This document shows, piece by piece, positions 30,108 through 44,287 of a stretch of DNA of 58,255 nucleotides; within the stretch, counting starts at the first letter, position 1, and each line of letters opens with the position of its first letter. The notes under the pieces are model-generated. The model saw only the letters and a program-made list of their open reading frames with translations, was not told where the DNA came from and did no database searches. Both the position numbers and the translations under genes were made by a program. This stretch comes from Thermoproteus sp. (lineage in GTDB: Archaea > Thermoproteota > Thermoprotei > Thermoproteales > Thermoproteaceae): positions 1-58,255 of the forward strand of contig JBMFIG010000008.1 in NCBI GenBank assembly GCA_049976425.1, written 5' to 3'.

Positions 30108-30129
30108 TATTTTTATCTAGATAAAAATA
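30108..30129. promoter_or_regulatory. Perfect 22-bp palindrome
   Basis: TATTTTTATCT|AGATAAAAATA; imperfect copy at 30071-30090. Confidence 0.6.
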
Positions 30130-30205
30130 CTTTAGATTTATTAATATATTAATCTATATATAGAAAGAAATGTAACGAATATAAGATAGACAAAATAATA
30201 CTTAC

Positions 30206-30340
30206 ATGGCACTCGGAATCTCCAGAACAAGTCAACTGTTTGTGCCAATGTTTGTTTATGCGAATGGTTCAGCTAAATGGGGCGAAGGACCGCTACCATT
30301 CCCAATACTCGTTGAAATAACTGTCGAGGTACCTATATGA
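30206..30340 (+). CDS. 44-codon ORF (small peptide or C-terminal remnant)
   Basis: MALGISRTSQLFVPMFVYANGSAKWGEGPLPFPILVEITVEVPI*; TGA overlaps the next ATG (ATGA 30337-30340). Confidence 0.45.
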   Translation: MALGISRTSQLFVPMFVYANGSAKWGEGPLPFPILVEITVEVPI

Positions 30341-31122: not shown

Positions 31123-31883
31123 CCGCGGCGGGCCTCGTCAAGAGGTTTGGGGCCGTGGAGGCGCTAGCCGGGGCCACGTTCTCCGCCTCGGGCGACGTCG
31201 TGGCGATCTTGGGGACTAACGGCTCGGGGAAGACGACGTTGCTCACGATAATCGCCGGCCTCCGGCGCCCCACGCGCGGGGAGCTCCGCCTGGACGGGCG
31301 GGAGCCCTACAAGTACAGGGACTGGGCGGCGCGGTACGTCAAGGCGGTTTTCGAGAAGCCGCGCTTCCCGTACCCCGTGAAGGCGGGCGAGGTCGTCGAT
31401 ATTGTGAGGAGGCTTAGGGACTGCCCCGGCGGGATAGACATATCCGATATATCCGGCCTCAAGATAGGCCAGCTGTCGTCGGGGCAGGCCCAGCTGTTGG
31501 GGATAGCCGTTGCCCTCGACTGCCACGACGGGGTTGCCGTATTGGACGAGCCGTTCAGCCACCTCGACAAGAGAAGGGCGGCGGCGTTGGCGGAGCTTAT
31601 CAGGAGTAGGGGCTCTGTGATCTACACCACTCACAACTCGGTGGAGGTCTATCTGGCAGACTACATCGTGGTTTTCGACAGGGGGAGGGTCGTCTGGGAA
31701 GGCCCTAGAGATCGGTTCTACAGCAGATACGAGTGGCGCATCGCGGCGGACAGAGCGCCGGGCGGATGCCGCGAGGTGGGCAGGGAGGGGGTCTACGTCG
31801 ACGTGGAGTGCACAGTCGAGGATCTGTTTAAAGGGCTGGCCGAGGGCTACGTCTATGCGGTCGAGCGCAGAGGCGTTTATTGA
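31113..31883 (+). CDS. ABC transporter ATP-binding protein
   Basis: GTNGSGKT, LSSGQ, LDEPF and TTH motifs. Confidence 0.93.
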   Translation: MELTAAGLVKRFGAVEALAGATFSASGDVVAILGTNGSGKTTLLTIIAGLRRPTRGELRLDGREPYKYRDWAARYVKAVFEKPRFPYPVKAGEVVDIVRRLRDCPGGIDISDISGLKIGQLSSGQAQLLGIAVALDCHDGVAVLDEPFSHLDKRRAAALAELIRSRGSVIYTTHNSVEVYLADYIVVFDRGRVVWEGPRDRFYSRYEWRIAADRAPGGCREVGREGVYVDVECTVEDLFKGLAEGYVYAVERRGVY

Positions 31884-32553
31884 GGCCCTTAGGTGGAATC
31901 TGAAGCTCTCCGTGGGGTACGGAGTGTTGCCCCTCGTGTTGCTCCTCGCGCTTGCCACGGCCGCGGCGTCGGAGGCTCCGGGGAGGGCCGTCGCCGCGTC
32001 TTACCTCGTGGAGAGCTTCGGGTTCGCCGCCTACTCCATCTACCTGGCGGCGAGCCTCGCCGCCGGCGGGAGGGGCGTCCAGTTCGAGCTGAACCTGTTC
32101 TCCTCGTACGAGGTCGTCTACCTCGCCAAGGTGGTCGCGTTCGCCATATCCCTCTCCCCGGCGGCTCTGACGGCCGGCTCGCTGGGCTGGTACCTCGGCG
32201 TGTTGGACCCAGCCGCCGTCCTCACGAGGTGGGCCACCGCAACCGCGGTATTCTCGGCCTCCCTCCTGCTGACCGACCAGAGATCGTCTATCTTGTTCCT
32301 GGTCATCCTGCTGGCCCTCACACCGCCGGCCTCCTTGACCGTCGTGAACAGCATGGTGGTCCACGGAGCCGTCGGCGGGCCTAACGGCGCGGTTATGGCC
32401 TTCGCGGCGTTTGTGGCCCCCATCTCCATGTACGCCTTCAAGCAGTACGTCGATATCTACCTCTACTACAGCTCGGCGATCGCCGTCTCGGCCGTCCTCA
32501 TAGCCGCCGGCCTCGCGGCCTTCAGGAGGATTGAGGTAAATCCGGCGGACTGA
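31855..32553 (+). CDS. ABC exporter permease
   Basis: About 6 TM helices; overlaps the ATPase gene. Confidence 0.8.
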   Translation: MRSSAEAFIEALRWNLKLSVGYGVLPLVLLLALATAAASEAPGRAVAASYLVESFGFAAYSIYLAASLAAGGRGVQFELNLFSSYEVVYLAKVVAFAISLSPAALTAGSLGWYLGVLDPAAVLTRWATATAVFSASLLLTDQRSSILFLVILLALTPPASLTVVNSMVVHGAVGGPNGAVMAFAAFVAPISMYAFKQYVDIYLYYSSAIAVSAVLIAAGLAAFRRIEVNPAD

Positions 32554-34239
32554 TCACCTATCTGCCTCGGGCGGGAAGTAGCCGAAGCTCATGTAGATCG
32601 CCGGCAGGTCGGCCAGGCGGTGGCCCTTCATGGCCTCGGCCATAGGCCTCAGATTGCGCCAGCTCGGCGTGACGAACCTAACCCTCCTCAGATATTGGGA
32701 GCCGGTCGCGGATATGTAGACGTACGCGGTCCCCCTCGCCATCTCGGCCAGCCCGTGGTATTCGCCGGGCTCCGGCCTCAGCTGGGTCAACACGCCGAAG
32801 ATGCCGGCGGCTCCCTCCCTCCTGAAATTCGGCGACAGCTCCAGCAGAGCCTCGTCCAGAATATCGCCGTCGGGGAGGGCGCGGAGGACCTCCTCGATAT
32901 ACTCTATGGACGCCCATATCTCGCCCCACCTTACCGAGGTCCTGGCCATGGCGTCTCCTCCCTTCTCGACGACGATCCTAGGCCTCACCAGCTCGTAGCC
33001 GTCGTAGGGCGAGGCAACCCTCGCGTCGTAGTCTATCCCGGATCCCCTCGCCGCCGGGCCGACTGCGCCCAGCGACGCGGCCCTCCTCGCGTCGAGGACG
33101 CCGACGCCCTCCAGCCTCATCCTCACCACTGGGTTCTTGAGGAACAGCTTCTCGAAGTCGGGGAGCCTCGCCTTGAGCTTCGCCAGAAGCCTCTCGACAG
33201 CCTGCCTTCCGTCCGTCGTGAGGTCTCTCCTGACGCCGCCCGGTATGGGGTAGGCCGACGTCGTCCTGGCGCCGGTCGCCCTCGCCTGGACCTCCGCTAT
33301 CATGTCGCCCATCCCGAAGCCCCACATAAACGCTGTGGAGTGGCCTATGAATATCCCGTGTAGGGCCAAGTCGTAGAGGTGGGTCCTGATACGCCCCAGC
33401 TCGGCCATCAAGGATCTGAGGGCCTTAGCCCTGGGCGGAGGCTCTAGGCCGAGCGCCTTCTCCACGGCGTGTACGTACGGCAGTATGGCGTTGGTTGAGT
33501 CCATAATGGACACCTTCTCCACCAGCGGCGGGACGGTCCAGAAGGGCCTCCTCTCGGCCAGCTTCTCGACGCCTCTATGGACGAAGCCGGGGTCGGGCCT
33601 GACGTCGGTTATCACGTCGCCGTCGACCACGACGAAGAGCCTCATGTGGCCGGAGCCGGGGTGTTGCGGGCCCACCACCAGCACCAGCCCCCTCTCGCCG
33701 GGCGCCAGCTCCTCCTCCCCCTCGACGAAGAAGGTGGAGCCCGGCCTCTTGTCGAAGGGCCACTCCGCCGGCTTGGCGCCGTCCGCCGCGCCTCCGCCCG
33801 CCTGCCTGCCCACGTTCTCCTGGACCTTCTCCACGGCCTTCAACAACGCCTCGGGCGTCGGCGGGCATCCGGACACATATACGTCGACGCCGACCACGTT
33901 GGAGGCGGGGACCATGTGGTAGGACCCGTAGAAGACGCCGCCCTTTATGGCGCAGGCGCCCATGGCTATGACGTATTTGGGCTCGGGCATCTGTTCGTAG
34001 ACCCACTTGACGAACTTAGCCATCTTGAGCGTTATGGTCCCCTCGATTATGAGGAGGTTGCTGTGTCTGGCCGACGGCATCGGGAGGACTCCGAGCCTCT
34101 CGGCGTCGTAGGCGGGGCCGAAGGCGTGGGCCAGCTCCACTCCGCAACACGCGGTCACCAGATGGGGCGGCCAGAGAGACCACTTGGTGCCCCAGGCGCC
34201 CGCCGCCTTGGCTAAATCCCTCACCTTCCTAATCGCCAT
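32554..34239 (-). CDS. Fused NuoB-NuoD subunit of a complex-I-like oxidoreductase
   Basis: N-terminal TACCGVE, GACAIKGG, GCPPTPE (NuoB N2 ligands); C-terminal GPQHPGSGHMRL, GFVHRGVEK, RGSG, FPPEADR (NuoD). Confidence 0.93.
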   Translation of the reverse strand: MAIRKVRDLAKAAGAWGTKWSLWPPHLVTACCGVELAHAFGPAYDAERLGVLPMPSARHSNLLIIEGTITLKMAKFVKWVYEQMPEPKYVIAMGACAIKGGVFYGSYHMVPASNVVGVDVYVSGCPPTPEALLKAVEKVQENVGRQAGGGAADGAKPAEWPFDKRPGSTFFVEGEEELAPGERGLVLVVGPQHPGSGHMRLFVVVDGDVITDVRPDPGFVHRGVEKLAERRPFWTVPPLVEKVSIMDSTNAILPYVHAVEKALGLEPPPRAKALRSLMAELGRIRTHLYDLALHGIFIGHSTAFMWGFGMGDMIAEVQARATGARTTSAYPIPGGVRRDLTTDGRQAVERLLAKLKARLPDFEKLFLKNPVVRMRLEGVGVLDARRAASLGAVGPAARGSGIDYDARVASPYDGYELVRPRIVVEKGGDAMARTSVRWGEIWASIEYIEEVLRALPDGDILDEALLELSPNFRREGAAGIFGVLTQLRPEPGEYHGLAEMARGTAYVYISATGSQYLRRVRFVTPSWRNLRPMAEAMKGHRLADLPAIYMSFGYFPPEADR

Positions 34240-34549
34240 GGCCCCTCGCCGTGAGGTAGGCGACCGCCGTCGCGGCCGCCACCGCCGCCAGTATCTCGGG
34301 CAGAGAGCCGGGATCCATCAGGTAGAAGGCTATGGACATCCCCACCACCGACTCCACGGCCACGGCCAGATAGACGTAGACGATGTACTGCATCGCCATC
34401 CTCCTCCTCGCCTTGCCGTAGGGCGGGTTGCCCGCCTCGAACCTAACCTCCTTGGCCCCGGAGGCCCGCCTCGGGGCCAGTAGCCTCGGCGCGATCAACA
34501 ACGCCGCCAGCGACGCGGCCAGGGCCAGCAGGAACATCAGCCAAGCCAT
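34229..34549 (-). CDS. nuoA: NuoA-like subunit
   Basis: Three TM helices; KEVRFEAGNPP loop; acidic VES motif. Confidence 0.85.
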   Translation of the reverse strand: MAWLMFLLALAASLAALLIAPRLLAPRRASGAKEVRFEAGNPPYGKARRRMAMQYIVYVYLAVAVESVVGMSIAFYLMDPGSLPEILAAVAAATAVAYLTARGHGD

Positions 34550-35487
34550 AGCCTCCACGCGGCGGACACGGCCAGAGAGGCGGCGGAGATGAGCAGTAGG
34601 GAGCCCCACCCCAGCTTGAGGGCCTGGTCTATCCTCATGCGGGGGTAGACGGCCCTTAGGAACAGCCAGACTGTCGTGAGGAGGAGGGCCTTGGCGATCA
34701 TGGCGAGCGCTCCCAAGGCTCCCGAGAACGGCGCCCAGCCGCCGAGGAAGAGCAAGGCGCCCAGCATGGAGAATGAGTACAGCCCGACGTAGTTGGCGCC
34801 GAACGAGGCGAGGAGGAGCGACGAGCCGTACTCGGTGTAGGGCCCGAACACGATCTCGGTATCGGCGTCGGGTATCTCGAAGGGGAACCTGCTGGTGGCC
34901 ATAGCCGCCGAGATGAAGAAGGCGAAGAACGCCAAGGGGTTCATGGCTATGCCCGGCAGCCTCTGGGCCTCGACCGCCTTGGCGGGGTCGGGCCCGTAGA
35001 GGACCACCATGGAGAGCACGGAGAGGGCCAGCGGGACCTCGTAGGCCACCTCTATGAGTATCTCGCGGAGCGCGCCTATGTAGGTGAACTTGTCGGCCTC
35101 GACCCACGCCATGGCCACTATGGCGGGCGTCGCGAGGAGCAGTATCGCCAGTATGTAGGCCAGCCCGTATCCGCTCTCCAGTATCGCCAGGCCGGGCGCG
35201 CCGGGTATGAACAATATCGGGAGGGCCTCGGCCGCGAATACGGCCAGCGGCAGCGCCGCGAAGAGGGCTCTGTTCGTGTAGGACGGCACGACGAGCTCGC
35301 TGAAGACGAGCTTGACGGCGTCGGCGAGGCCTTGCAGAATCCCTCCCAGCCTCCTCGAGACGTAGAGGGGGCCGTAGCGCCACTGCACCTTCGCCGCCAG
35401 CTTCCTCTCCAGCCACACGGCGAATAGGAGGTAGGCGAACATAGCCGTGATGCCCGGGTAGACCAGCGCAGCGACGGCGCCCGTCAT
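34537..35487 (-). CDS. nuoH: NuoH-like subunit
   Basis: ERKLAAKVQWRYGP, QGLADAVKL, RFPFEIPDADTE and PRMRIDQ motifs. Confidence 0.95.
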   Translation of the reverse strand: MTGAVAALVYPGITAMFAYLLFAVWLERKLAAKVQWRYGPLYVSRRLGGILQGLADAVKLVFSELVVPSYTNRALFAALPLAVFAAEALPILFIPGAPGLAILESGYGLAYILAILLLATPAIVAMAWVEADKFTYIGALREILIEVAYEVPLALSVLSMVVLYGPDPAKAVEAQRLPGIAMNPLAFFAFFISAAMATSRFPFEIPDADTEIVFGPYTEYGSSLLLASFGANYVGLYSFSMLGALLFLGGWAPFSGALGALAMIAKALLLTTVWLFLRAVYPRMRIDQALKLGWGSLLLISAASLAVSAAWRLWLG

Positions 35488-35882
35488 AGCAAGGACCTCC
35501 TAGGCCTCCCGTCGGCCTCCGGCGGGTCCCCCTCGGCGTATTTGGCGAATGTGTCGAGGCTTGTCCATATGACCTCGTGCCACTGGGTATGCCTCAAGCT
35601 CCCGGTCGGGCAGGCGTCGACGCAGTAGCCGCAGAATATGCAACGGCCGTAGTCTATGCCGGGGTACCTCTTCCCGTCGGGCCCCACGCTGAACTTTACG
35701 GCCTTCGCCGGGCAGACCGCCTCGCAGAGGCCGCAGCTGATGCACTTGCCCCTGTCGTTGACGATGTAGCCGCGGAGCCTGTCGCCGTAGTCCCTCGACT
35801 CTCTGGGGTAGTCCACCGTTATGGGCCCCCTCAAGGCGTTCTTGACAGCGACGGCGAGTAGACGTATGTGGTCCGTCAACAT
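35484..35882 (-). CDS. nuoI: NuoI-like 2x[4Fe-4S] subunit
   Basis: TVDYP, CISCGLCEAVCP and CIFCGYCVDACP motifs; ATG 35882 overlaps the porB stop. Confidence 0.93.
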   Translation of the reverse strand: MLTDHIRLLAVAVKNALRGPITVDYPRESRDYGDRLRGYIVNDRGKCISCGLCEAVCPAKAVKFSVGPDGKRYPGIDYGRCIFCGYCVDACPTGSLRHTQWHEVIWTSLDTFAKYAEGDPPEADGRPRRSLL

Positions 35883-36898
35883 GCCGCCTCGGGGTCGAGA
35901 GGGCCTATGTACTCGCCTCCCGCCATCTCGTTCAGCCTCTTCACGTCCTCGTCTATGACCTTCTGCAGGAAGGCTATCTCCTCCTTGCCGAGGTGTCTGA
36001 ACCTCCCCTGGAGCTTCAGGAAGCACTCCACGGGCTTCCTCTTGGGGACGGGCACGGTTATTCTGAAGACGCCGTCCTCAATCTCGTAGTTCACCCAGTA
36101 GCCGGTCTCCGTGGCCAGCTCCAGGACCTTGATTGCGTATTTCGGCTCGAAGCGCCACCCCGGCTGGCAGGACTGGAGGACGTGTATGAACGAGGGCCCG
36201 TCGACCTCAGCCGCCTTCTTGAACTTCTGCAACATGTCGGGGAGGTAGGCCGGATTCGCCGTGGCCGCATACGGTATGCCGTGGGCGGCCGCTATGAGGG
36301 CCATCGGCTTCTTGTGGGTAAGGTTCCCCGGTATCTTCCTCCCCGCCGGGGACGTCGTGGCCGAGGCGAAGAGGGGGGTCGTGCCGGAGCGTTGTATCCC
36401 CGTGTTCATGTAGCCCTCGTTGTCGTACATGACGTAGATCACCCTATGCCTCCTCTCCAGCATGCCGCTGAGAGCCTGGAAGCCTATGTCGGCCGTGCCC
36501 CCGTCGCCTGCGAACACCACCACGTTTATCTTCCTGTTGGGGTCTATGGCGCCCCTCCTCTTGAGGACCTTTATGGCCGCCTCTATGCCCGAGGCCACGG
36601 AGCCGCCGTTGCCGAACGCCACGTGTATCCACGGAACAGCCCAGTTGGTGCGGGGGTACGTCACGGTGGACACCTCGGCGCATCCCGTCGGGTTCACGAC
36701 GATGGTGTCGGGGCCCAGGACCTTCAACATATGTCTGGCGATAACGCCTATCGTGCAACTGGCGCACAGCCCGTGTCCCGGCAGGAACAGCTCCTGCTCC
36801 GGCAGGGCGAAGTTGTCGAACTCGTAGGCGGCCTCGACTGCGGCGCCCGGCCTCGCTCCCGGCAGTTGTAGCCCCCTTACGTCTACCTTGACCTTCAT
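35876..36898 (-). CDS. porB: Pyruvate/2-oxoacid:ferredoxin oxidoreductase beta subunit
   Basis: GHGLCASC, TGC, GDGG...DNEGYMNTG (TPP-binding motif). Confidence 0.93.
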   Translation of the reverse strand: MKVKVDVRGLQLPGARPGAAVEAAYEFDNFALPEQELFLPGHGLCASCTIGVIARHMLKVLGPDTIVVNPTGCAEVSTVTYPRTNWAVPWIHVAFGNGGSVASGIEAAIKVLKRRGAIDPNRKINVVVFAGDGGTADIGFQALSGMLERRHRVIYVMYDNEGYMNTGIQRSGTTPLFASATTSPAGRKIPGNLTHKKPMALIAAAHGIPYAATANPAYLPDMLQKFKKAAEVDGPSFIHVLQSCQPGWRFEPKYAIKVLELATETGYWVNYEIEDGVFRITVPVPKRKPVECFLKLQGRFRHLGKEEIAFLQKVIDEDVKRLNEMAGGEYIGPLDPEAAC

Positions 36899-38085
36899 GG
36901 CCCCCTCAGCCCTATGTAGAACGGCCTCATGGGCTCCGCCTCGCCCTTCGCCACCCGCTCCGCCGCCTTCCTCAACGCCGTCGAGTCGGTCGCCCTCATG
37001 CCTATGGTTGCGTAGGCGTTGTACACCGGGCGGGTCAAGGTTGCGGCGAGCTCCGTGGCGACGGGGCCCAGAATCCCTCCGTGGTTGAACGCTCTATCGA
37101 CCACCAACACCTTCTCCACGCCGTCGAGGCTCTTCCGCAGAAAGTCGGCGGGCCAAGGCCTCAGAAGCCTTATCTTCAAGGCGCCCGCCCTTATGCCCTC
37201 GGCCCTCAAGGCGTCCGCGGCCCTCCTCGCCAGGCCGTAGATCGAGCCGTAGGTCACTATGGCCACGTCGGCGTCCTCCAGCCTGTAGGCCGAGCCGAAG
37301 CCGTAGCTCCTCCCGAAGAGCTTGCCGTACTGGGCGTCGGCCTCGGCGACTGCTTTTATCGAGTCCTCCAGCGCCTTGTACGCCGCGTACCTCATCTCGA
37401 AGTACCACTCCGGCGTCCCCACCGCGCCGAGCGAGGCCGGGCTGTCCACGTCCAGCTTCTTCCAGCTCCTGGTTATCGGGGCGTAGCGCATCACGTCCTC
37501 CTCGTCCTCGGGCACCTCCAGAGGCTGGAGCACGTGGCTTATCCAGAAGCCGTCGTAGGCGACGGCGACGGGGAGATGGACCGACGGATCCTCGCCGACT
37601 CTATATGCCTGTATAACCGTGTCGAAGGCCTCTTGTACGTTAGACACCATGTAGATTATCCAGCCCAGCTCCCTCATGGACATGACGTCGCTGTAGTCCC
37701 CCCAGACGTTTATGGGGGCCGAGTAGGCCCTCGTGGCTATGCCCATCACTATGGGGAGCCTCAGCCCCACCGCTATGGGCAGTATTTCGTACATGAAGCC
37801 GAGCCCCTGGCTGCTGGTCGCAGTGAAGACCCTGGCCCCCATGGCGGAGGCTCCCACGACAGCCGAGAGGGCCGAGTGCTCGCCCTCCACCGGGATGTAC
37901 TCGGCGTCGAGCTCGCCGTTGTTGACGTACTCCGCCAGCTTCTCCACGGCTGGCGTCTGTGGAGTTATGGGGTAAGCCGCCACGACCTCCACGCGGGCCA
38001 TCTTGGCGGCGAGCGCCACCGCGTGGTTCCCCGTGAGCGCGATCCTCCTCTGCCTCGCCTTGCCCAACTCCAGCTGGACGGTCAT
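36895..38085 (-). CDS. porA: Pyruvate/2-oxoacid:ferredoxin oxidoreductase alpha subunit
   Basis: TGNHA, AYPITPQT, EGEHSA and TATSSQG motifs. Confidence 0.93.
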   Translation of the reverse strand: MTVQLELGKARQRRIALTGNHAVALAAKMARVEVVAAYPITPQTPAVEKLAEYVNNGELDAEYIPVEGEHSALSAVVGASAMGARVFTATSSQGLGFMYEILPIAVGLRLPIVMGIATRAYSAPINVWGDYSDVMSMRELGWIIYMVSNVQEAFDTVIQAYRVGEDPSVHLPVAVAYDGFWISHVLQPLEVPEDEEDVMRYAPITRSWKKLDVDSPASLGAVGTPEWYFEMRYAAYKALEDSIKAVAEADAQYGKLFGRSYGFGSAYRLEDADVAIVTYGSIYGLARRAADALRAEGIRAGALKIRLLRPWPADFLRKSLDGVEKVLVVDRAFNHGGILGPVATELAATLTRPVYNAYATIGMRATDSTALRKAAERVAKGEAEPMRPFYIGLRGP

Positions 38086-39026
38086 ATCTCCCTAACCATC
38101 TTTATGGCCCCCGTGGGGCACACCTCGGCGCATATGCCGCAGCCCTTGCAGTAGTTGTAGTCGAAGTCTATGGCCTTGACCTTGACAGACCTGCCGCGCG
38201 GGCCCTTGGCCTCCCTCCACACCTCGAGCACCGCGTCGTCGGGGCAGTATATCCAGCACCTCCTGCACATGATGCACTTGGAGTGGTCTATCACGGGCCT
38301 CTCCACGCGCCAGGAGCCCGTCTTGTACCGCAGGCTGCTGCCCGGGAACGCCAGCCCGCCCTCCGGTATTTTGTCCCAGCCCACCAGCTCGTAGTCCCCC
38401 GTGAGGAACGCGGAGGTGGTGGGTATCTCTACTGAGGCCTTCGCGCTCCCCGTCTCGGAGGCCGGTATCACCACCGCCGTCTTGTAGGCCTCCACGGCCG
38501 CCGCGAAGTTCTGCTCCACGGCCTTGCCCAGCTGGGACGCTATGGCCTCCTTCACCGACTCGAGCCTGGGGATCCCCATAACCTTGGCGAAGACGCCCAC
38601 CATGGGGCCGTTGGGCACCGCGAGCCCCACGTGTTTGAGGGCTATGCCTATGCCGTCGACCACCGCGATGTTCACGTCGCGCCGCCCCACCAGCTTGGCG
38701 ACCTCCTCCGGGCTCTTCCCCGAGCTCACCGCCACGTACCCTCCCGGCCTCACCGCGTCCACGACCACCCTCATGGGCTCGATCAGTTTGTCGTCCAGGA
38801 AAACCGCCACGTCCGGGTTCTTTATGGGCTCGGGCGAGTCGTCGAAATAATCCGTGAGGGTCAGGAAGGCCTTCACGGGGGCGCCTCTACGCTCGGCGCC
38901 GAACTCGGGATTAGCCAAGGCGTAGAGGCCGTCGGAGATGGAGGCGTGCGCGACTATGTATACGGCTGTGACTATGCCCTGCCCGCCTCTGCCGATCCAG
39001 ACCGACTCTATCCTCATTAAGGACAT
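38082..39026 (-). CDS. 2-oxoacid:ferredoxin oxidoreductase fused gamma/delta subunit
   Basis: GRGGQG and FGAERRGAPV (gamma); TGSWR, CIMCRRCWIYCP and CKGCGICAEVCP (delta). Confidence 0.93.
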   Translation of the reverse strand: MSLMRIESVWIGRGGQGIVTAVYIVAHASISDGLYALANPEFGAERRGAPVKAFLTLTDYFDDSPEPIKNPDVAVFLDDKLIEPMRVVVDAVRPGGYVAVSSGKSPEEVAKLVGRRDVNIAVVDGIGIALKHVGLAVPNGPMVGVFAKVMGIPRLESVKEAIASQLGKAVEQNFAAAVEAYKTAVVIPASETGSAKASVEIPTTSAFLTGDYELVGWDKIPEGGLAFPGSSLRYKTGSWRVERPVIDHSKCIMCRRCWIYCPDDAVLEVWREAKGPRGRSVKVKAIDFDYNYCKGCGICAEVCPTGAIKMVREI

Positions 39027-39111
39027 TGGCTCTTTATACTAAAAATATTTTCTATTTATTCAAGAAGAACTTTACTATATTCCATGTTGAAAACATCAAT
39101 TATAATGATCC

Positions 39112-40218
39112 TTAATGCGGCAGGAGCAGAGGCATGGCGGCGAGGAGCCACAGCGGAGCGGCGGCGCCCAGCGCGGCGCTCGCGAGCGACGCCGCGAGGG
39201 GCCTCCTCCCAGCGCCTGCGCTTGTCGACGAGGCGAGGCGGATGTAGTAAGCCACGGACCACGCCACGTTGGCCAACAGATAGGCCGCGGCGGCGGGGCC
39301 GAGCCTCTGGGCCGTCAAGATCAGGAGGGCTAGCTTGGGCCAGAAGCCGAGGAGCGGCGGGATCCCTATCTGGTTTAGGGACAGGACGTACGCCGACCAA
39401 CGGGGGCCGGGCGACGAGATGTGGGAGAACAAGCCCATGGCGCCTATGGAGTCGGCGAACATGAGGAAGGGCGCGAGCGGCTTGTATACGGCGAAGGCGA
39501 AGAGGGCAAGGCCTGCGTGGAAGACCGAGGCGAAGCCGAGCAACCTCCTCGGGTCTCTGCTGGCGGTCGCGCCTAGGTTGCCCACGAGGATAGACGCGGC
39601 GGCCAGCGGGAGCGAGGCGTAGGCGGGGACGTCCAGGGGGAGCAACATCAAGGCGAAGGCCGCCCCGAGCTTGGCCAAGCCGGATATGAGCACGAGGCCC
39701 TCGGGCGCCGATCTGCCGAATACGTCGGGGACCCAGTAGAAGGCGGGGAATACGCCGAGCTCCAGCGCAACTCCCGAGAAGGCCAGGGCGGATCCCAGCT
39801 CGCCGCCAGCGGAGAGGCCGGCCACGACGAGGCTGCCGGCCACGGTGGACACCACGAAGTACCTGAAAAGCGCCTCGACGCTGCCGAGGTCCGGCGACGC
39901 CGCTATCAAAGCGCCGGGGGCGGCAACGGCCATCGCGAAGCCCAAGGCCTTGTAGTGGGGCTCCGGAGACGCCATGAGCAAGACGCCGTATGCCGAGAGG
40001 GCCGCCGCCAGGCCCGAGTAGTCCCTGAGCCTGCCCCTCGGCACGAGCGCCGGCGCGACCAGGTAGGGCAGGAGCAGTAGGGCCAACGCGCCCTCCCCCG
40101 CCGATGCTAACGAATAGGCCGCGTAGGCGAAGGCCGCCGCGTCGACGGCGTAGGCCCAGACGCCGCGCTCCCCGGCCCTCCTCGCGGCTACATATAGCGG
40201 GAGGAGCCACTGGATCAT
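39112..40218 (-). CDS. nuoN: NuoN-like antiporter subunit
   Basis: EALFRYF, FPAFYWVPDV, RRLLGFAS and GIPPLLGFWPK motifs. Confidence 0.87.
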   Translation of the reverse strand: MIQWLLPLYVAARRAGERGVWAYAVDAAAFAYAAYSLASAGEGALALLLLPYLVAPALVPRGRLRDYSGLAAALSAYGVLLMASPEPHYKALGFAMAVAAPGALIAASPDLGSVEALFRYFVVSTVAGSLVVAGLSAGGELGSALAFSGVALELGVFPAFYWVPDVFGRSAPEGLVLISGLAKLGAAFALMLLPLDVPAYASLPLAAASILVGNLGATASRDPRRLLGFASVFHAGLALFAFAVYKPLAPFLMFADSIGAMGLFSHISSPGPRWSAYVLSLNQIGIPPLLGFWPKLALLILTAQRLGPAAAAYLLANVAWSVAYYIRLASSTSAGAGRRPLAASLASAALGAAAPLWLLAAMPLLLPH

Positions 40219-41780
40219 ATCAAGATAAACGCCACGAAGGCGACGAGCGCCGCGGCGCCCGCCGCGTATAGGTACACCTCTACGCCGATCTCCGAGAGCT
40301 TGGCCGACGCCCTCCTCACAGCCCCGACGAGCTTTAGGTGGAGCGCGTCGTCGACCGCCTTGTCTGCTACAGCCGCCGCGCCGGCCAGAGCCCTCCAGAG
40401 GGAGCCCGCCGACAGCAGAGCTCTATCTATGCGCGAGTCCAGCGAGCCCACGGCCCGGGCGGCCGCCAGGAGGCCTCCGCCGACGGCGGCGAACAGCTCC
40501 GGCAGATACAAGCGCCTCTCCATGGGCCTAAACGGAGGCGCCTTGTATAGGGCGAGCCCGGCGAGGGCTAGGAGCCAGAGCGGGCTCGGCGCAGTGGCCG
40601 GGGCGGCGAAGGCCAACGCGGCTGAGGCCAGGGCTATGGCCGAGAGCGGCGACCAAGCCCTCTCGGTGCTTGAGCCCAGCAGAAGCCTCCCGACGTAGCC
40701 CGCCGTCAGGAAGGAGAACGGGAGCTCCCAATCGGGCAGAAGCGATTTAGCAACCGCGCCGGCCGGCGTGAGGCCCAGCAGAGTGGCGAGCGACAGCGCC
40801 ATCGCGGCCTTGGCGACGGCGCCGTGGGATCCCGGGAGCCTCGTCCCATGTCTATGTATGGACTCGCCGACGGCCATGAAGAGGGCGGCCTTGGCGAAGC
40901 CGTGGGCGATCAAAAGCGCCGTCGCCCCGGCCGGATCGGTCAAGGAGAACGCGGTGGCCAGGCCTAGGTAAGACGCCGTGGACGCCGCCAGGAGGACCTT
41001 GGGCTCCCTCTGCCACAACGCCGTCAGCCCTCCGTAGACGGCCGTGGCGAGGCCTACGGCGAGGGCGTAGGGCCAGTAGTGGGCGAGCGGGCCGTGCAAC
41101 CTGACGAGGAGTATAGGCCCCGCCGCGACCATAGTCGCGCTGTGGAGCAGAGCCGACACGGGCGTCGGCGCCGACATGGCGGTCATGAGCCAGTCGGTGA
41201 AGGGGATCTGGGCCGATTTGACGAAGGCGGCGATGAGTATCAAGGCGGCGATCGCCGGGGGCAGATCGCGCCAGAGGCCTATATCCGGGCCGTACGCGGC
41301 CGCCGCGGCGGCGAGGCCCACCGCGAGCGCTGCTGTGCCCAGCTCCACGGTGGCTATGGCCCTCAGAGCTGAGGCCGAGGGCCTCCAGAGCCATTGGAGG
41401 AACCTCCCGCGGGCTCCGTCGCCCACAAGCCCCAGCTCCTCGTCGTCTCTATACGTCAATATCAAGGCCCAGCTGGCGGCGTCGAGCCCTCCCCACCCGG
41501 CCAGGATCCACAGCCAGTTGTTCGATGTGAGGAAGAGCAACATGGATCCGTAGAAGACGTCGAGCCAGGCCCAGTACCACCCCCTCCTCTCCACGTCGTC
41601 CACATACCACAGGGAGTATAGCGCCGTGAGGAGGAAGACGAAGTTCAGCAGATCCAAGAGGGGGTCGCCGAGGCCCGACAGCGCGATAACGGCTACGGCC
41701 GCGGCTACGGCCGCGGCGCCTCTCTTGGTCGCGGCGTCTACGGCCGAGGCGGCGAAGGGTATCAACGGCGCTATATCCAT
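40215..41780 (-). CDS. nuoL: NuoL-like antiporter subunit
   Basis: KSAQIPFTDWLMTAMSAPTPVSALLHSATMV and HGFAKAALF motifs. Confidence 0.92.
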   Translation of the reverse strand: MDIAPLIPFAASAVDAATKRGAAAVAAAVAVIALSGLGDPLLDLLNFVFLLTALYSLWYVDDVERRGWYWAWLDVFYGSMLLFLTSNNWLWILAGWGGLDAASWALILTYRDDEELGLVGDGARGRFLQWLWRPSASALRAIATVELGTAALAVGLAAAAAAYGPDIGLWRDLPPAIAALILIAAFVKSAQIPFTDWLMTAMSAPTPVSALLHSATMVAAGPILLVRLHGPLAHYWPYALAVGLATAVYGGLTALWQREPKVLLAASTASYLGLATAFSLTDPAGATALLIAHGFAKAALFMAVGESIHRHGTRLPGSHGAVAKAAMALSLATLLGLTPAGAVAKSLLPDWELPFSFLTAGYVGRLLLGSSTERAWSPLSAIALASAALAFAAPATAPSPLWLLALAGLALYKAPPFRPMERRLYLPELFAAVGGGLLAAARAVGSLDSRIDRALLSAGSLWRALAGAAAVADKAVDDALHLKLVGAVRRASAKLSEIGVEVYLYAAGAAALVAFVAFILI

Positions 41781-43006
41781 GGCGCCAGCATGAGGGCGTA
41801 GGGCGCGGCGGCGGCGAGGATCATGGGCACGGCCATGGCGAGCGGCGGGCTGGCCTCGCTCCTCCCCGCCCTATAGAGCTTGTCGAAGAGGTAGAAGTTG
41901 TAGACGGCGGTGGCGAACAGCGCCGCGTAGAGCGCTGGGGCGAGGCCGGGAGGGGAGTAGAGGGCGAGGTAGGCCTTGCCCAGAAGGGCTATGCCGAAGA
42001 CCCCGGCGAGCGCCACGAGGCCCAGCGCGGATCCGGCGAAGGTCCACGGATCCAGCCGCAGGAAGCCCAGCCTCCTCTCGTTCTGCGTGGCTATCCCTAT
42101 TCCTGACACCATGAACATAGCCGCCTTGGCCAAGGCGTGGCCCACGAAGAGCAGTACCGCGGCCTGCCAATCGCCCAACGCCGCGGCGGCCACGAGGAGG
42201 CCCATGTTGGCTATGGTCGAGTCGGCGAGCGCCCTCTTCAAGTCGGCCTCTCTGAAGACCAGCAACGAGCCGTACACGGCGGTGGCGGCGCCGTAGAGGG
42301 CGAGGTAGTAGCCGGATATCGGCGTGCGGGGCAGTATCTGGAGGAGCCAGTAGGCCATGAGGCCTACGTGGATCGGCGACAGCAACGCCGAAAGGGGCGT
42401 GGGGGCCTCGGCGTGTGCGTAGGGGAGCCAGTAGTGGACGCCGGCGGTCCCCATCTTGACCAACAAGCCGAAGACGGCCAGCAGAGCGGGGGCTAGAGGC
42501 ATGGCGTAGGGCGGGAGGTAGCCTCCGGAGACCACGGCGCCTATGAGAAACGCTATGGAGCCTATCTGGGACCATATGAAGTACATGACGCCTATCCTGG
42601 CCCTATCGCCGTAGCCGAAGTAGTATATGAGCAGGAAGCTCGTCACGACCGCCAGCTCCATGGCGAGGAAGGCGTAGATCAAGTTGTCGAAGGCCGGGAT
42701 GAGCTCCAGCGATATGACGTAGAGGGCCAAGACGCCGTAGAACCACCTCCCCAGCCCTCTATGCTCGGCGTATTCCTTCGAGTAGGCCAACACGGCGAGG
42801 CCCAGCAAAGCCGTAGTCGCTATGAACGGCTCGGCGGCGCCGCCGAAGTTGAGCGAGGCGGGGCCTATATACGGCAGGGATCCCAGCTCCTCGCGTCTGC
42901 CGAGAGCCAGCAGGGTCAGCGCCACGGAGGCCGCGGACGGGGCCAGGCCCAGCCTCAGCCCGAGGAGGGCCAGAGCCGTCGCCGCTATCAACACGTACTC
43001 AATCAT
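41771..43006 (-). CDS. nuoM: NuoM-like antiporter subunit
   Basis: AMELA, VKMG...HYWLPYAHAEAPTP and DLKRALA motifs. Confidence 0.9.
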   Translation of the reverse strand: MIEYVLIAATALALLGLRLGLAPSAASVALTLLALGRREELGSLPYIGPASLNFGGAAEPFIATTALLGLAVLAYSKEYAEHRGLGRWFYGVLALYVISLELIPAFDNLIYAFLAMELAVVTSFLLIYYFGYGDRARIGVMYFIWSQIGSIAFLIGAVVSGGYLPPYAMPLAPALLAVFGLLVKMGTAGVHYWLPYAHAEAPTPLSALLSPIHVGLMAYWLLQILPRTPISGYYLALYGAATAVYGSLLVFREADLKRALADSTIANMGLLVAAAALGDWQAAVLLFVGHALAKAAMFMVSGIGIATQNERRLGFLRLDPWTFAGSALGLVALAGVFGIALLGKAYLALYSPPGLAPALYAALFATAVYNFYLFDKLYRAGRSEASPPLAMAVPMILAAAAPYALMLAPWI

Positions 43007-43223
43007 GGCTCAGCTTGAAGGCCGCCGCGACTAGCAGGAGCGTGTCGGCCACCCCGACCGCCGACGCTACCGCGACCATGTTAGGATCGCCCGAAGACAC
43101 CGCGGCGGCTATGGCGCCCAGCACGACCAGCTCGGCCCCTATGATAGTCCTCACCCTATCTCTGGCGGCCAATACCACGACGAGGCCCGCCGCTATTAGG
43201 GCTATGGGGAGCGCCGCGTTCAC
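42999..43223 (-). CDS. nuoK: NuoK-like subunit
   Basis: Three TM helices with the conserved Glu (IIGAEL); position between nuoJ and nuoM. Confidence 0.8.
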   Translation of the reverse strand: MNAALPIALIAAGLVVVLAARDRVRTIIGAELVVLGAIAAAVSSGDPNMVAVASAVGVADTLLLVAAAFKLSHD

Positions 43224-43615
43224 GGCCTCCCGATCCTCGCCGCTATTAGGAGCGAGAAGAGCACAAGCGCCGCCGCCGGCAACAACAGCTGGGGGTCCAG
43301 AGGCTTGGGCTGGGCCGGTCCCTCCGGCAGTAGGGCCAGCGCCGAGAGGGCCAACGGCAACGCGGCGTAGGGCTTGAGCGAGATCTTGGCCCCGTTCTCC
43401 GACACGGCCGCCGCGGCGACTATCACGAGCACGAGGGCCGAGGCGATGTAGGCCAGGGCCACCAACACGAAGAGCGGCTCCATGCCGAGCGCGGCCGCGT
43501 AGGCGGCGGTCACGAGGCCCACGACCAGTAGAGAAAAGGCGGCGAGGACGTTGTCCTTTGTCTTAAGTATGGCGAGGGTCCCCAAGGAGGCGAGGAGGAC
43601 GAAGGCTAGGTCCAT
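43220..43615 (-). CDS. nuoJ: NuoJ-like subunit
   Basis: KDNVLAAFSL...LAYIASALVL; about 5 TM helices; ATG 43615 follows the TATA at about 43636-43643. Confidence 0.8.
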   Translation of the reverse strand: MDLAFVLLASLGTLAILKTKDNVLAAFSLLVVGLVTAAYAAALGMEPLFVLVALAYIASALVLVIVAAAAVSENGAKISLKPYAALPLALSALALLPEGPAQPKPLDPQLLLPAAALVLFSLLIAARIGRP

Positions 43616-43705
43616 GGCCCTCTGTTCAGGATTCATTATAAATATTTCCAATGGTGTATGTAAATAGCTTCAATATCTAATGAGGAAAATTATAGTTATC
43701 TAAAA

Positions 43706-44287
43706 TTATCGATGGGCCGCGGCGCGTACTCTGAGGATCCCAGGCGCCGTCGCGAGCTCCTTTATCTCGTAGCCGAGCTCCTCCAGGAGGCACCTCACGG
43801 CGGCGGCCGTCACCTCCACGCTCTCGAGGCTGTAGCCGACCCCCACGGCGTCCAGCGAGAACTCCCCGCCCTCCGCCCTCACCTCGAACCTCCTGGCGGG
43901 AACCGCCTTTGTTATGTAGGGGGCCAGCTTCACGGCGTTTTCAAGCCCGCCGAAGAACGCCTTTATGTAGCTGGCGAGCATCCTCCCCGCCTCGCACCAG
44001 GCCTTGCCCACGGCGTCTGGGTTCGCCTTGTACATCTCGACGACCATTCTGTCCAGGAGCCTGCCGGGGACCGGCACGGTCTCCAGCTCTGTTATGACTC
44101 TGTAGAAGAGGGCTATATCCCTTATCTGGCCCGCGCTGTAGCCCTGCCTCACGAGCTCCAGCCCGGTGCCCAACAGCTGGTTGGCCAAGGCGTACTGCGT
44201 CATGCCCAGCTCCTCGGCCGTAGCCGCTAGGGCGTCGGCGACTTCCTTCGCCACGGCTATGTTTACTCTGTCCTTCCTCTGGCTCAC
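43706..44287 (-). CDS. Hypothetical protein with an N-terminal ribbon-helix-helix-like region
   Basis: RVNIAVAKEVADAL...GMTQYALANQLL; TATA at about 44307-44313. Confidence 0.75.
   Translation of the reverse strand: MSQRKDRVNIAVAKEVADALAATAEELGMTQYALANQLLGTGLELVRQGYSAGQIRDIALFYRVITELETVPVPGRLLDRMVVEMYKANPDAVGKAWCEAGRMLASYIKAFFGGLENAVKLAPYITKAVPARRFEVRAEGGEFSLDAVGVGYSLESVEVTAAAVRCLLEELGYEIKELATAPGILRVRAAAHR

What the first reader, a model, noticed from the sequence alone, without database searches (positions are those of the whole stretch)
32554..43615. 2-oxoacid:ferredoxin oxidoreductase operon embedded in a complex-I-like cluster
Seen: nuoJ-K-M-L-N, an 85-bp AT-rich gap, then por(gamma/delta)-A-B-nuoI-H-A-(B/D). 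All genes within each block overlap, including porB/nuoI (35876-35882). There is no nuoEFG, and the NuoD part lacks both [NiFe] CxxC motifs (VEKVSIMDS; FPPEADR), so it is not a hydrogenase. Known: headless complex-I homologs take electrons from alternative input modules. Inference: POR is the input module, with its delta 2x[4Fe-4S] domain wiring to NuoI, giving an ion-pumping 2-oxoacid:quinone (or polysulfide) oxidoreductase. Similar linkage may have been noted in Thermoproteales genome reports; I know of no biochemical demonstration.
Basis: partly seen in the sequence, partly recalled or inferred. Interest (0 to 1): 0.75.

Follow-up and report, generated by a model that had tools for sequence, protein, structure and literature searches.

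The report
Pyruvate oxidoreductase inside complex-I gene cluster
A heat-loving archaeon keeps the genes of a pyruvate-oxidising enzyme inside, and overlapping, the genes of a complex-I-like membrane proton pump; the layout is real and conserved in its family, but it was published in 2011 together with the idea that the enzyme feeds the pump directly, and that idea is still untested.

Summary
On the minus strand lie nuoJ-K-M-L-N-like genes, an 85-bp gap (76.5% A+T), then porGD(fused)-porA-porB-nuoI-nuoH-nuoA-nuoB/D(fused). Every junction inside a block overlaps, including porB/nuoI by 7 nt.

The order is kept in Thermoproteus and Pyrobaculum. The POR and NuoD orthologues lie within 7 kb of each other in 19 of 41 relatives, and both are missing or decayed in the other 6 genomes of the family.

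It is not new. Siebers et al. 2011 (PMC3189178) described this fqo/oor cluster in T. tenax and asked the same question. This scan also reached the same verdict earlier on two other genomes.

Details I did not see in the passages read:
- The cluster has no NuoC of its own.
- An internal promoter-like element precedes porGD.
- PorB carries a clade-specific C-terminal tail with two invariant cysteines.
- POR-less sister clusters exist.

Whether POR docks on NuoI or works through free ferredoxin remains open. The one complex prediction gave no verdict.

Verdict: a real and coherent feature that is already known, with its mechanism unproven. Interest is moderate to low.

The parts
43220..43651 (-). 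nuoJ-like small membrane protein; start uncertain (TTG 43651, ATG 43636 or 43615)
   Evidence: Sits directly upstream of nuoK and overlaps it by 4 nt. No Pfam or NCBIfam hit at default thresholds. PF00499 at E 0.14 for the window's protein; top family in 6 of 13 orthologues. No PDB hit, even with a profile.
42999..43223 (-). nuoK-like (chain 4L)
   Evidence: PF00420 at E 7e-4, 19.7 bits, below the 26.1 cut-off. Orthologues in POR-less relatives reach 28.7-32.1 bits.
41771..43006 (-). nuoM-like antiporter-type subunit (411 aa)
   Evidence: PF00361 at 1.4e-27. The alignment to ND5 chains shows the TM5 Glu, TM7 Lys and TM11 His/Lys kept. These residues are conserved in orthologues.
40215..41780 (-). 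nuoL-like subunit (521 aa) with a C-terminal amphipathic helix and a final TM segment
   Evidence: PF00361 at 1.2e-24; NuoL models are the top NCBIfam hits but below cut-off. The TM5 motif reads GW(G/A)GLD instead of GWEG in 16 of 16 orthologues; the other charged residues are kept.
39112..40218 (-). nuoN-like subunit (368 aa), divergent
   Evidence: PF00361 at 1.5e-8; NuoN models are the top NCBIfam hits, far below cut-off. No TM5 Glu. A conserved Glu stands at the TM7 Lys position, and the GFWPK lysine is conserved.
39027..39111 (-). AT-rich intergenic gap: a T-run after nuoN and a BRE/TATA-like box about 22-30 nt before the porGD start
   Evidence: 85 bp, 76.5% A+T. An AT-rich gap with TCATTAT..., a T-run and AAAnnTTTTTA(T/A)AG-like boxes recurs before porGD in the 15 loci printed. 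In L029 a 1.5-kb insert sits at this junction.
38082..39026 (-). porGD: fused gamma (PF01558) and delta (2x[4Fe-4S]) subunit; the true start is probably the second ATG (MRIE...)
   Evidence: Pfam hits. TIGR02175 at 141.8 bits and TIGR02179 at 102.9 bits, both above cut-off. All 8 cluster cysteines are invariant in 12 of 12 sequences.
36895..38085 (-). porA (alpha subunit)
   Evidence: PF01855 at 1.4e-65 and PF17147. The best NCBIfam hit is PorA_Arch at 382 bits, below the 550 cut-off.
35876..36898 (-). porB (beta, TPP-binding subunit) with a clade-specific C-terminal tail
   Evidence: PF02775. PorB model NF008819 at 381.8 bits against a cut-off of 405. GDG...NEGYMNTG and Cys45/48/73/244 are invariant. 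The extra invariant Cys292 and Cys340 and the IGPxDPxxxC tail occur in 16 of 16 linked loci plus the window, and in 0 of 47 unlinked relatives.
35484..35882 (-). nuoI (2x[4Fe-4S]); its start overlaps the porB stop by 7 nt
   Evidence: Fer4 families. NuoI models are the top NCBIfam hits. 8 Cys are invariant. The overlap is 4 or 7 nt in 16 of 16 loci.
34537..35487 (-). nuoH
   Evidence: PF00146 at 1.3e-70. NF004741 at 305.6 bits against a cut-off of 305.
34229..34549 (-). nuoA (106 aa)
   Evidence: PF00507 at 23.8 bits against a cut-off of 23.3, scored on the longer ORF. Start placed at MAWLMF. NuoA NCBIfam models hit below cut-off.
32554..34239 (-). Fused nuoB-nuoD (561 aa) without a NuoC domain
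   Evidence: PF01058 and PF00346. N2-cluster cysteines are present (CCGVE, GAC, GCPP) and there is no NiFe CxxC. PDB hits to 49-kDa/Nqo4/MbsL at about 1e-50. A 98% identical protein is named 'subunits B and D' in T. uzoniensis 768-20.

Best explanation
The cluster encodes one electron-transfer unit with two parts. The first is a pyruvate-type four-domain 2-oxoacid oxidoreductase (fused gamma-delta, alpha, beta). The second is a complex-I/Fqo-type membrane enzyme that lacks NuoEFG and has no NuoC of its own.

My preferred mechanism is that POR is this enzyme's own input module.
1. Pyruvate + CoA is oxidised at the TPP site of alpha/beta.
2. Electrons pass from the beta [4Fe-4S] cluster to the two delta clusters.
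3. They continue through the two clusters of NuoI to cluster N2 in the NuoB part.
4. They reach a membrane acceptor, most likely menaquinone, at the NuoB-D/NuoH interface.
5. This drives ion translocation through NuoH/A/J/K and the three antiporter-like subunits.

Shown here: gene content, cofactor motifs, conserved order, start/stop coupling of porB to nuoI, joint loss, and clade-specific changes in PorB.

Inferred: stable docking, the acceptor, pumping and the direction of electron flow.
For: 1. All POR and Q-module cofactor motifs are intact and invariant in orthologues.
2. porGD-A-B-nuoI-H-A is the invariant core of the cluster.
   - The POR and NuoD orthologues lie within 7 kb in 19 of 19 genomes that have either.
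   - 12 of 12 genome-contig loci with PorB of at least 74% identity are flanked by nuo genes, against 0 of 48 loci at 39-50% identity.
   - The porB stop overlaps the nuoI start by 4 or 7 nt in 16 of 16 loci.
   - The flanks do rearrange: nuoB-D has moved in G003/G005, and a 1.5-kb insert separates nuoN from porGD in L029.
3. The genes are lost together.
   - G019 keeps a nuoBD pseudogene with 7 stops and has no POR.
   - G016 keeps only fragments.
   - Four further family genomes have neither.
4. The POR-less sister cluster in G036 has its own nuoC. The POR-linked clusters have none, and each family genome holds a single PF00329 copy (23 of 24; none found in G005).
5. PorB of the linked clade alone has the tail IGPxDPxxxC and Cys292. 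This holds for 16 of 16 linked loci plus the window, 0 of 47 unlinked relatives, and neither of the genome's own two paralogues.
6. From general knowledge (recalled, not tested here): input enzymes encoded inside complex-I-like clusters, such as NuoEFG, FqoF and CooS/CooF with Ech, are physically attached.
Against: - The closest NuoD relatives (crenarchaeal B-D fusions in G036, G037 and G040) have no POR in the cluster. The membrane enzyme therefore does not need one.
- The delta domain is ordinary. Its inter-cluster insert is shared with the genome's unlinked paralogue on C2.
- No extra linker or anchor subunit is encoded.
- The T. tenax alpha/beta orthologues are listed as active with pyruvate when cloned with gamma/delta from another cluster. 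The catalytic core therefore works without the membrane part (review PMC13768988, Table 1 and footnote c; the original paper was not seen).
- In 4 Pyrobaculum-genus genomes (G014, G015, G017, G021) the only nuoB2-nuoC pair lies right beside the cluster. NuoC may therefore be supplied in trans.
- Gene overlap is the rule in this compact genome, so it is weak evidence for a complex.
- No experiment bears on docking.
Confidence: 0.42

Rival explanations
1. POR is an ordinary soluble enzyme that reduces a free ferredoxin. The NuoEFG-less complex-I-like enzyme oxidises that ferredoxin at NuoI. The genes are kept in one operon only so that the two partners of one pathway are made together.
For: - POR-less sister clusters exist.
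- The delta domain resembles that of the unlinked paralogue.
- The alpha/beta core is listed as active in a soluble recombinant chimera.
- T. tenax is reported to have at least six ferredoxin genes (Siebers 2011, passage seen).
- Recalled, not tested: 11-subunit complexes in cyanobacteria and Methanothrix take electrons from ferredoxin.
Against: - The genome has two further four-subunit-type POR/VOR sets (on C2 and C21) that could reduce ferredoxin. A third set tied to nuoI would then need a special reason.
- The por-nuoI coupling is invariant while the flanks rearrange.
- The clade-specific PorB tail and cysteines have no explanation under this reading.
- The dedicated nuoC was lost on the same branch.
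Confidence: 0.38
2. The main role runs in reverse. During autotrophic growth on H2 and sulfur, the membrane complex uses the proton gradient to push electrons from quinol up to POR, directly or through ferredoxin. POR then acts as the pyruvate synthase of the dicarboxylate/4-hydroxybutyrate cycle.
For: - The cycle needs a ferredoxin-dependent pyruvate synthase (PMC12794621, passages seen).
- T. tenax is described as having a single, quinone-linked [NiFe] hydrogenase (Siebers 2011). Low-potential electrons must therefore come from somewhere.
- The study that cloned TTX_0209/0210 is titled as measuring reductive carboxylation (reference list seen).
- An HpaB-family, 4-hydroxybutyryl-CoA-dehydratase-like gene follows nuoD directly in G003 and G005, and lies 25 kb away in this window.
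Against: The match with the HpaB_N marker in the family is loose. Of 25 genomes, 17 have both, 2 have the cluster only (G004 and G010, each 99% complete), 3 have the marker only and 3 have neither. Related genomes are not independent, and the marker family is not specific. No expression data were found. PORs are reversible, so both directions may be used.
Confidence: 0.12
3. The neighbourhood is a historical accident. An operon for a soluble POR was inserted into a nuo cluster and has stayed there without any functional link.
For: An internal promoter-like element precedes porGD, and the two halves can be separated by an insert.
Against: - The order and the porB/nuoI overlap are conserved across two genera, down to 64% NuoD identity.
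- Both sets of genes decay together in G016 and G019.
Confidence: 0.05

Closest known systems
fqo/oor cluster of Thermoproteus tenax, TTX_0203-0215 (Siebers et al. 2011, PLoS One 6:e24222, PMC3189178; passages read)
   Same: A complex-I-like (fqo) gene set at one site, with three 2-oxoacid oxidoreductase genes (oorA, B, CD) in the middle and no F420- or NADH-oxidising subunit. The paper asks the same question: is the oxidoreductase a separate soluble enzyme, or a replacement input module that funnels electrons into the quinone pool?
   Different: In this window nuoB and nuoD are fused, as in the protein named for T. uzoniensis 768-20. The following points are not in the passages I read:
- the lack of NuoC;
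- the internal promoter-like gap;
- the PorB tail;
- the POR-less sister clusters.
F420H2:quinone / F420H2:phenazine oxidoreductases (Fqo of Archaeoglobus fulgidus, Fpo of Methanosarcina)
   Same: The core subunits are the same: A, B, D, H, I, J, K, L, M and N. FpoD, FpoH, FpoI and FpoL models are among the NCBIfam hits. B-C-D fused relatives from Methanophagales and Syntropharchaeia appear at 41-49% identity.
   Different: There is no FqoF/FpoF and no C subunit or domain. All Fpo models score far below their cut-offs. The donor module would be a TPP enzyme.
Respiratory complex I (Nuo/Nqo; e.g. T. thermophilus 4HEA/2FUG)
   Same: NuoD, NuoB, NuoH and NuoI are homologous. Nqo4 matches at 4.6e-50 and the N2 cysteines are present. 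There is an L-type subunit with a lateral helix.
   Different: - There is no NuoEFG and no own NuoC.
- In the alignment the residue facing Tyr87 of Nqo4 is Ile (Ser if shifted by one). The Tyr87 numbering is recalled.
- The genome's canonical paralogue also has no Tyr there, so this is a trait of the lineage.
- The L-like and N-like subunits lack the TM5 Glu.
Membrane-bound sulfane reductase MBS of Pyrococcus furiosus (6U8Y)
   Same: MbsL is nominally the best PDB hit, at 5.1e-51 against 5.5e-51 for a complex-I 49-kDa subunit. It also lacks the NiFe site. The host respires sulfur.
   Different: The margin is negligible. The membrane arm is of Nuo type (A, J, K, L, M, N), not Mrp type. The RIC...CPP remnants of MbsL are absent.
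Four-subunit archaeal pyruvate:ferredoxin oxidoreductases (PorABCD, e.g. Pyrococcus furiosus)
   Same: All four domains and all cofactor motifs are present. PorA, PorB, PorC and PorD are the best NCBIfam models.
   Different: - Gamma and delta are fused.
- The alpha and beta scores fall below the equivalog cut-offs (382 against 550; 381.8 against 405).
- Beta has an added tail with two cysteines.
- The genes are embedded in a nuo cluster.

Membership tests
Complex-I-type (Nuo/Fqo/Fpo) membrane oxidoreductase core | NuoB with the four cysteines of cluster N2 | tested here: met
   PF01058 at 2.1e-27. CCGVE, GAC and GCPP are present in the B part. TIGR01957 at 149.9 bits against a cut-off of 142.7.
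Complex-I-type (Nuo/Fqo/Fpo) membrane oxidoreductase core | NuoD/49-kDa homologue without the [NiFe] cysteine ligands | tested here: met
   PF00346 at 2.4e-62. No CxxC at either site (VEKVSIMDS...FPPEADR).
Complex-I-type (Nuo/Fqo/Fpo) membrane oxidoreductase core | NuoI with two [4Fe-4S] motifs, plus NuoH and NuoA | tested here: met
   Fer4 families. 8 Cys invariant in 12 of 12. PF00146 at 1.3e-70. PF00507 just above its cut-off.
Complex-I-type (Nuo/Fqo/Fpo) membrane oxidoreductase core | NuoJ and NuoK | tested here: inconclusive
   K: PF00420 below cut-off (19.7 against 26.1). J: no hit at default thresholds and no PDB hit. PF00499 is weak for the window's protein (E 0.14) and is the top family in 6 of 13 orthologues. 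The assignment rests mainly on position.
Complex-I-type (Nuo/Fqo/Fpo) membrane oxidoreductase core | Three antiporter-like subunits (L with lateral helix, M, N) with conserved TM5 Glu and TM7/TM12 Lys (pattern recalled) | tested here: inconclusive
   Three PF00361 proteins. The M-like subunit keeps all of these residues. In the L-like subunit the TM5 Glu is replaced by Gly or Ala, with an invariant Asp three residues later. The N-like subunit has no TM5 Glu and has a Glu at the TM7 Lys position. All of these changes are conserved in orthologues.
Complex-I-type (Nuo/Fqo/Fpo) membrane oxidoreductase core | NuoC (30-kDa) subunit | tested here: not met
   No PF00329 in the cluster or in the B-D fusion. 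There is one copy in the genome, at C16:7108-7494 beside a second nuoB. There is one copy per family genome. It could still be shared in trans.
Complex-I-type (Nuo/Fqo/Fpo) membrane oxidoreductase core | Quinone-ligand Tyr of the 49-kDa subunit (Tyr87 of T. thermophilus Nqo4; numbering recalled) | tested here: not met
   The alignment puts Ile (Ser if shifted by one) opposite the Tyr of ...RMDY.... The genome's canonical paralogue has Leu or Ala there. The acceptor cannot be read from the sequence.
Four-subunit-type 2-oxoacid:ferredoxin oxidoreductase (POR/VOR) | Alpha (POR_N + PFOR_II), beta (TPP-binding GDG...N motif and a [4Fe-4S] cysteine set), gamma (PF01558), delta (2x CxxCxxCxxxCP) | tested here: met
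Four-subunit-type 2-oxoacid:ferredoxin oxidoreductase (POR/VOR) | Substrate is pyruvate | tested here: inconclusive
   The best NCBIfam models are PorA_Arch and PorB, but both score below the equivalog cut-offs, and VOR models follow closely. A 2026 review lists TTX_0209/0210 as pyruvate-active in a chimeric enzyme (the original paper was not seen).
Group-4 membrane-bound [NiFe] hydrogenase (Mbh/Ech/Hyc) | N- and C-terminal CxxC nickel-iron ligands in the large subunit | tested here: not met
   Both motifs are absent. MbhL and HycE score 1e-38 against 1e-50 for complex-I subunits.
T. tenax-type fqo/oor cluster | Three oor genes in the middle of a single-site fqo gene set, with no F subunit | tested here: met
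   The window's gene order matches the paper's description. The same order is seen in 16 related loci.

The most novel reading that the evidence does not exclude
POR is a stably bound input module that took the place of both the electron-input module and NuoC on a complex-I scaffold. This would give a ferredoxin-free, proton-pumping pyruvate:menaquinone oxidoreductase. It may be reversible, so that the proton gradient could drive pyruvate synthesis from acetyl-CoA and CO2. The clade-specific PorB tail with its two cysteines would form part of the docking or stabilising element.
Probability: 0.3. Interest if true: 0.75.

Novelty: already known. Interest (0 to 1): 0.35.

Why it matters
If POR is truly docked, this would be the first complex-I relative fed directly by a TPP-dependent 2-oxoacid oxidation. 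It would conserve the large energy span between pyruvate and quinone with no soluble carrier. Run in reverse, it would offer a gradient-driven route to pyruvate synthesis in hyperthermophilic autotrophs.

It would also add a module to the known kit of complex-I evolution. The question has stood open since 2011 and can be answered with cultivable strains of Thermoproteus and Pyrobaculum.

If POR is soluble, the cluster is an ordinary co-regulated pair: a ferredoxin producer and a ferredoxin:quinone oxidoreductase.

Tried and rejected
**Complex prediction.** I submitted POR alpha + beta + delta (residues 222-314 of porGD) with NuoI as partner, each chain as an alignment of 11-12 orthologues. The result was no verdict: scores 0.00, 0.51 and 0.00, and the controls were not run. 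I do not use it either way.

**RNA evidence for co-transcription.** No RNA holder was listed for window:34000-40500.

**AlphaFold2 of PorB.** This used an 11-row alignment, to see whether Cys292 and Cys340 could meet. Mean pLDDT was 49.2, too poor to use. A disulfide staple, which is common in this family by recall, remains a guess.

**NuoJ assignment.** There was no PDB match with the single protein or with the profile. Only weak PF00499 hits were found.

**Hydrogenase reading.** Rejected, because there are no NiFe ligands.

**MBS reading.** Not adopted. The first-rank PDB hit is a tie, and the membrane arm is of Nuo type.

**Missing quinone Tyr as a cluster-specific trait.** Rejected, because the canonical paralogue lacks it too.

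**Delta-domain insert as a docking loop.** Rejected, because the unlinked paralogue on C2 shares it.

**Tie to autotrophy via the HpaB_N marker.** The match is loose: 17 both, 2 cluster only, 3 marker only, 3 neither, of 25 family genomes.

**orf193 upstream of nuoJ as part of the cluster.** Rejected. It is found only in two close relatives (L023, L024) among the stored loci.

**Literature.** Seven full-text searches found no experimental test of a POR-Nuo association. The two Ramos-Vera papers on T. neutrophilus could not be opened, and they might name the autotrophy-induced pyruvate synthase genes. Xiao et al. 2021 was not seen.

Full report
**What is there**

The finding's coordinates hold a tight minus-strand cluster.

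The first block runs from 43651 to 39112. It holds a small membrane protein in the nuoJ position, a nuoK-like gene and three PF00361 antiporter-like genes (M-, L- and N-like; 411, 521 and 368 aa).

An 85-bp gap follows at 39027-39111. It is 76.5% A+T in a window of 63.2% G+C.

The second block runs from 39026 to 32554:
- porGD, a fusion of the POR gamma domain with a 2x[4Fe-4S] delta domain
- porA
- porB
- nuoI
- nuoH
- nuoA
- a 561-aa fusion of NuoB and NuoD

All junctions within a block overlap by 4-13 nt. porB and nuoI overlap at 35876-35882.

The cofactor motifs are complete:
- the TPP motif and four cluster cysteines in PorB
- eight cysteines each in the delta domain and in NuoI
- the four N2 cysteines in the NuoB part

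The NuoD part has neither NiFe CxxC motif.

Two corrections apply. The J assignment is weak: no default Pfam, NCBIfam or PDB hit, and PF00499 only at E 0.14 for the window's protein and as top family in 6 of 13 orthologues. There is also no NuoC. The B and D parts are joined by a short linker, and the genome's only PF00329 match lies on another contig beside a second nuoB.

**Who has it**

The window is contig C8 of a 1.84-Mb genome. A 98% identical NuoB-D protein carries the source name Thermoproteus uzoniensis 768-20.

I searched 41 genomes of the order, the window's own included.
- A PorA orthologue (at least 66% identity) and a NuoD orthologue (at least 63%) occur in the same 19 genomes, always on one contig and within 7 kb.
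- In two of these (G003, G005) the nuoB-nuoD pair has moved upstream of nuoJ in divergent orientation. porGD-A-B-nuoI-H-A stays intact.
- The other six genomes of the family have neither gene intact. G019 keeps nuoK, nuoM, a piece of nuoL and a nuoBD pseudogene with seven stops. G016 keeps fragments of nuoD and nuoJ. G008 (76% complete), G009, G011 and G024 show nothing.

I also scanned one genome for each of 185,579 species with PorB. This returned 60 loci.
- All 12 loci with at least 74% identity, titled Thermoproteus, Pyrobaculum or Thermoproteaceae, have nuo genes on every side that the contig reaches.
- None of the 48 loci at 39-50% identity (Thermoplasmata, Thermodesulfobacteriota, a deltaproteobacterium) has any nuo gene within the flanks held.

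The porB stop overlaps the nuoI start by 4 nt (12 loci) or 7 nt (4 loci) in 16 of 16 loci. L020 and L031 appear to be one record fetched twice (same gene coordinates offset and identical scores), and L003 overlaps L023, so the number of independent genomes is somewhat smaller.

**Relatives without POR**

Three genomes of two other genera (G036, G037, G040) carry a fused NuoB-D at 48-52% identity in a nuo cluster that has no POR.

In G036 the order is nuoC, nuoH, nuoI (opposite strand), a small gene, nuoBD, J-like, K, M, L, N. This cluster lies beside CO-dehydrogenase/acetyl-CoA-synthase genes.

I built a quick maximum-likelihood tree of the NuoD part. It has 59 rows: 57 of the 120 listed homologues, picked across the list, plus the window's protein and the genome's canonical paralogue.
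- The POR-linked proteins form one clade (12 rows, SH-aLRT 100).
- The crenarchaeal B-D fusions form another (9 rows, SH-aLRT 100).
- These two are joined only weakly (support 84) with the long-branched canonical paralogue.

B-C-D fusions of Methanophagales and Syntropharchaeia and unfused archaeal NuoD make up the other half of the tree.

Every family genome holds one PF00329 copy (23 of 24; none found in G005, which is 91% complete), whether or not it has the POR-linked cluster. G036 holds three, one of them inside its POR-less cluster. So gain of POR and loss of a dedicated NuoC fall on the same branch. That is a single event and no statistic.

A caveat applies. In G014, G015, G017 and G021 the only nuoB2-nuoC pair lies next to the cluster in convergent orientation, so NuoC may be shared.

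**Features specific to the linked clade**

PorB of the linked clade ends in G-x-E-x-IGP-x-DP-x(3)-C and has a cysteine in K/E/R-C-F, about 48 residues earlier.
- Both features are present in 16 of 16 linked loci and in the window.
- The tail is in 0 of 47 unlinked relatives. The cysteine is in 0 of the 43 of those where the motif could be located.
- The genome's own paralogues on C2 and C21 lack both.

No other extra invariant cysteine occurs in PorA, PorGD or NuoI. Two cysteines cannot bind a cluster alone. A disulfide that staples the tail is a reasonable guess, but I could not test it because the PorB model had pLDDT 49.

The insert between the two delta cluster motifs is shared with the C2 paralogue, so it is not specific.

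**Transcription units**

The gap before porGD is AT-rich in all 15 loci printed. It has a T-run just after nuoN and an AAAnnTTTTTA(T/A)AG-like box about 22-30 nt before the start that orthologues share (MRIE...). This fits an archaeal terminator followed by a promoter for a near-leaderless transcript (interpretation by inference).

In L029 a 1.5-kb insert with small opposite-strand ORFs sits exactly at this junction.

The por genes therefore probably travel with nuoI-H-A-(B/D) on one transcript, and nuoJKMLN on another.

**The membrane arm**

The M-like subunit keeps the TM5 Glu, TM7 Lys, TM11 His/Lys and TM12 Lys seen in its alignment to ND5.

The L-like subunit has GW(G/A)GLD where complex I has GWEG. 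The N-like subunit has no TM5 Glu and has a Glu at the TM7 Lys position. Both patterns are conserved in 16 orthologous loci. The canonical pattern is recalled from the complex-I literature.

Ionisable residues under selection suggest a working ion path, though not the textbook one.

**The acceptor**

PDB matches of the D part tie between P. furiosus MbsL (5.1e-51) and complex-I 49-kDa subunits (5.5e-51; T. thermophilus Nqo4 at 4.6e-50). Hydrogenase large subunits score 1e-38.

The residue facing the quinone-ligand Tyr of Nqo4 is Ile or Ser. The canonical paralogue of the same genome lacks the Tyr as well, so this says nothing special about the cluster.

Menaquinone is the likely acceptor, by inference. 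A sulfur compound is not excluded.

**What is known**

Siebers et al. 2011 describe the T. tenax cluster fqo/oor (TTX_0203-0215), with oorA-D (TTX_0208-0210) in its middle. They call it unprecedented and ask whether the OOR is a separate soluble enzyme or replaces the substrate-oxidising subunits to funnel electrons into the quinone pool (passages read).

A 2026 review of PFORs lists TTX_0209 as pyruvate-active. It notes that TTX_0209/0210 were cloned together with gamma and delta genes of a second cluster (Table 1 and footnote c read). The original paper, Xiao et al. 2021, was not seen.

Seven full-text searches found no experimental test of the association.

This scan had already noted the same arrangement on two other genomes, with the same verdict. 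I checked the paper myself.

**Mechanism and odds**

- Docked input module: 0.42. I favour this slightly because the por-nuoI-H-A core is invariant while its flanks move, the genes decay together, the dedicated NuoC is gone, PorB has clade-specific additions, and the genome has other PORs for general ferredoxin reduction.
- Soluble POR with a ferredoxin shuttle: 0.38. This is almost as likely, because the sister clusters need no POR, the delta domain is ordinary and the catalytic core works in a soluble chimera.
- Mainly reverse, gradient-driven pyruvate synthase role: 0.12. This is attractive for H2/sulfur autotrophy, but the cluster does not track the 4-hydroxybutyryl-CoA-dehydratase-like marker closely (17 both, 2 cluster only, 3 marker only, 3 neither, of 25 family genomes).
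- Pure accident: 0.05.

**Verdict**

The feature is real, conserved and coherent, but it is already in print with the same hypothesis. What remains valuable is that the hypothesis is testable and still untested.

Noticed in passing
window 6451-9495: An HpaB-family gene (4-hydroxybutyryl-CoA-dehydratase-like; PF11794 + PF03241) lies divergent to an aldehyde dehydrogenase. Beside them are a thiolase, a ChsH2-like protein and two acyl-CoA dehydrogenases (1978-6237). [quoted passage not shown]
   Followed up: partly
window 43706-44287 (-): A 193-aa ORF just upstream of nuoJ has no family hit. Its N-terminus looks like a ribbon-helix-helix DNA binder (by eye). Among the stored loci it is conserved only in two close relatives (L023, L024). 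A 48% identical paralogue lies on contig C3.
   Followed up: partly
G014, G015, G017, G021 (coordinates): In four genomes of the sister genus, the genome's only nuoB2-nuoC pair lies convergent to, and 0.4-3 kb from, the nuoD end of the POR-nuo cluster. In the window's genome this pair is on another contig.
   Followed up: no
L029 5355-6834 (also L033): A 1.5-kb insert with two small opposite-strand ORFs (128 and 120 aa) lies between nuoN and porGD in Pyrobaculum sp. WP30 and in a related MAG.
   Followed up: no
L013 77-6690 (G036): The POR-less sister nuo cluster lies next to CdhD, a CooC-like ATPase and a RACo-type activase. It is thus beside CO-dehydrogenase/acetyl-CoA-synthase genes, another ferredoxin-linked enzyme.
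   Followed up: no
window 30001-32000: G+C dips to 52%, against 58-69% elsewhere. The dip covers an ORF with no family hit (30337-31122) and an ABC ATPase (31092-31883).
   Followed up: no
window 1142-1924 (-): A Cas6-family gene (PF10040) lies at the window's start. No CRISPR array was looked for.
   Followed up: no
window 32554-34239: The NuoB-D fusion without a C domain occurs in this lineage, in one Pyrobaculum protein (P0003) and in all POR-less crenarchaeal relatives, while most linked clusters have B and D split. The fusion state has therefore changed more than once. A 2024 survey of archaeal fusions (passage read) mentions B-C and B-C-D fusions.
   Followed up: partly
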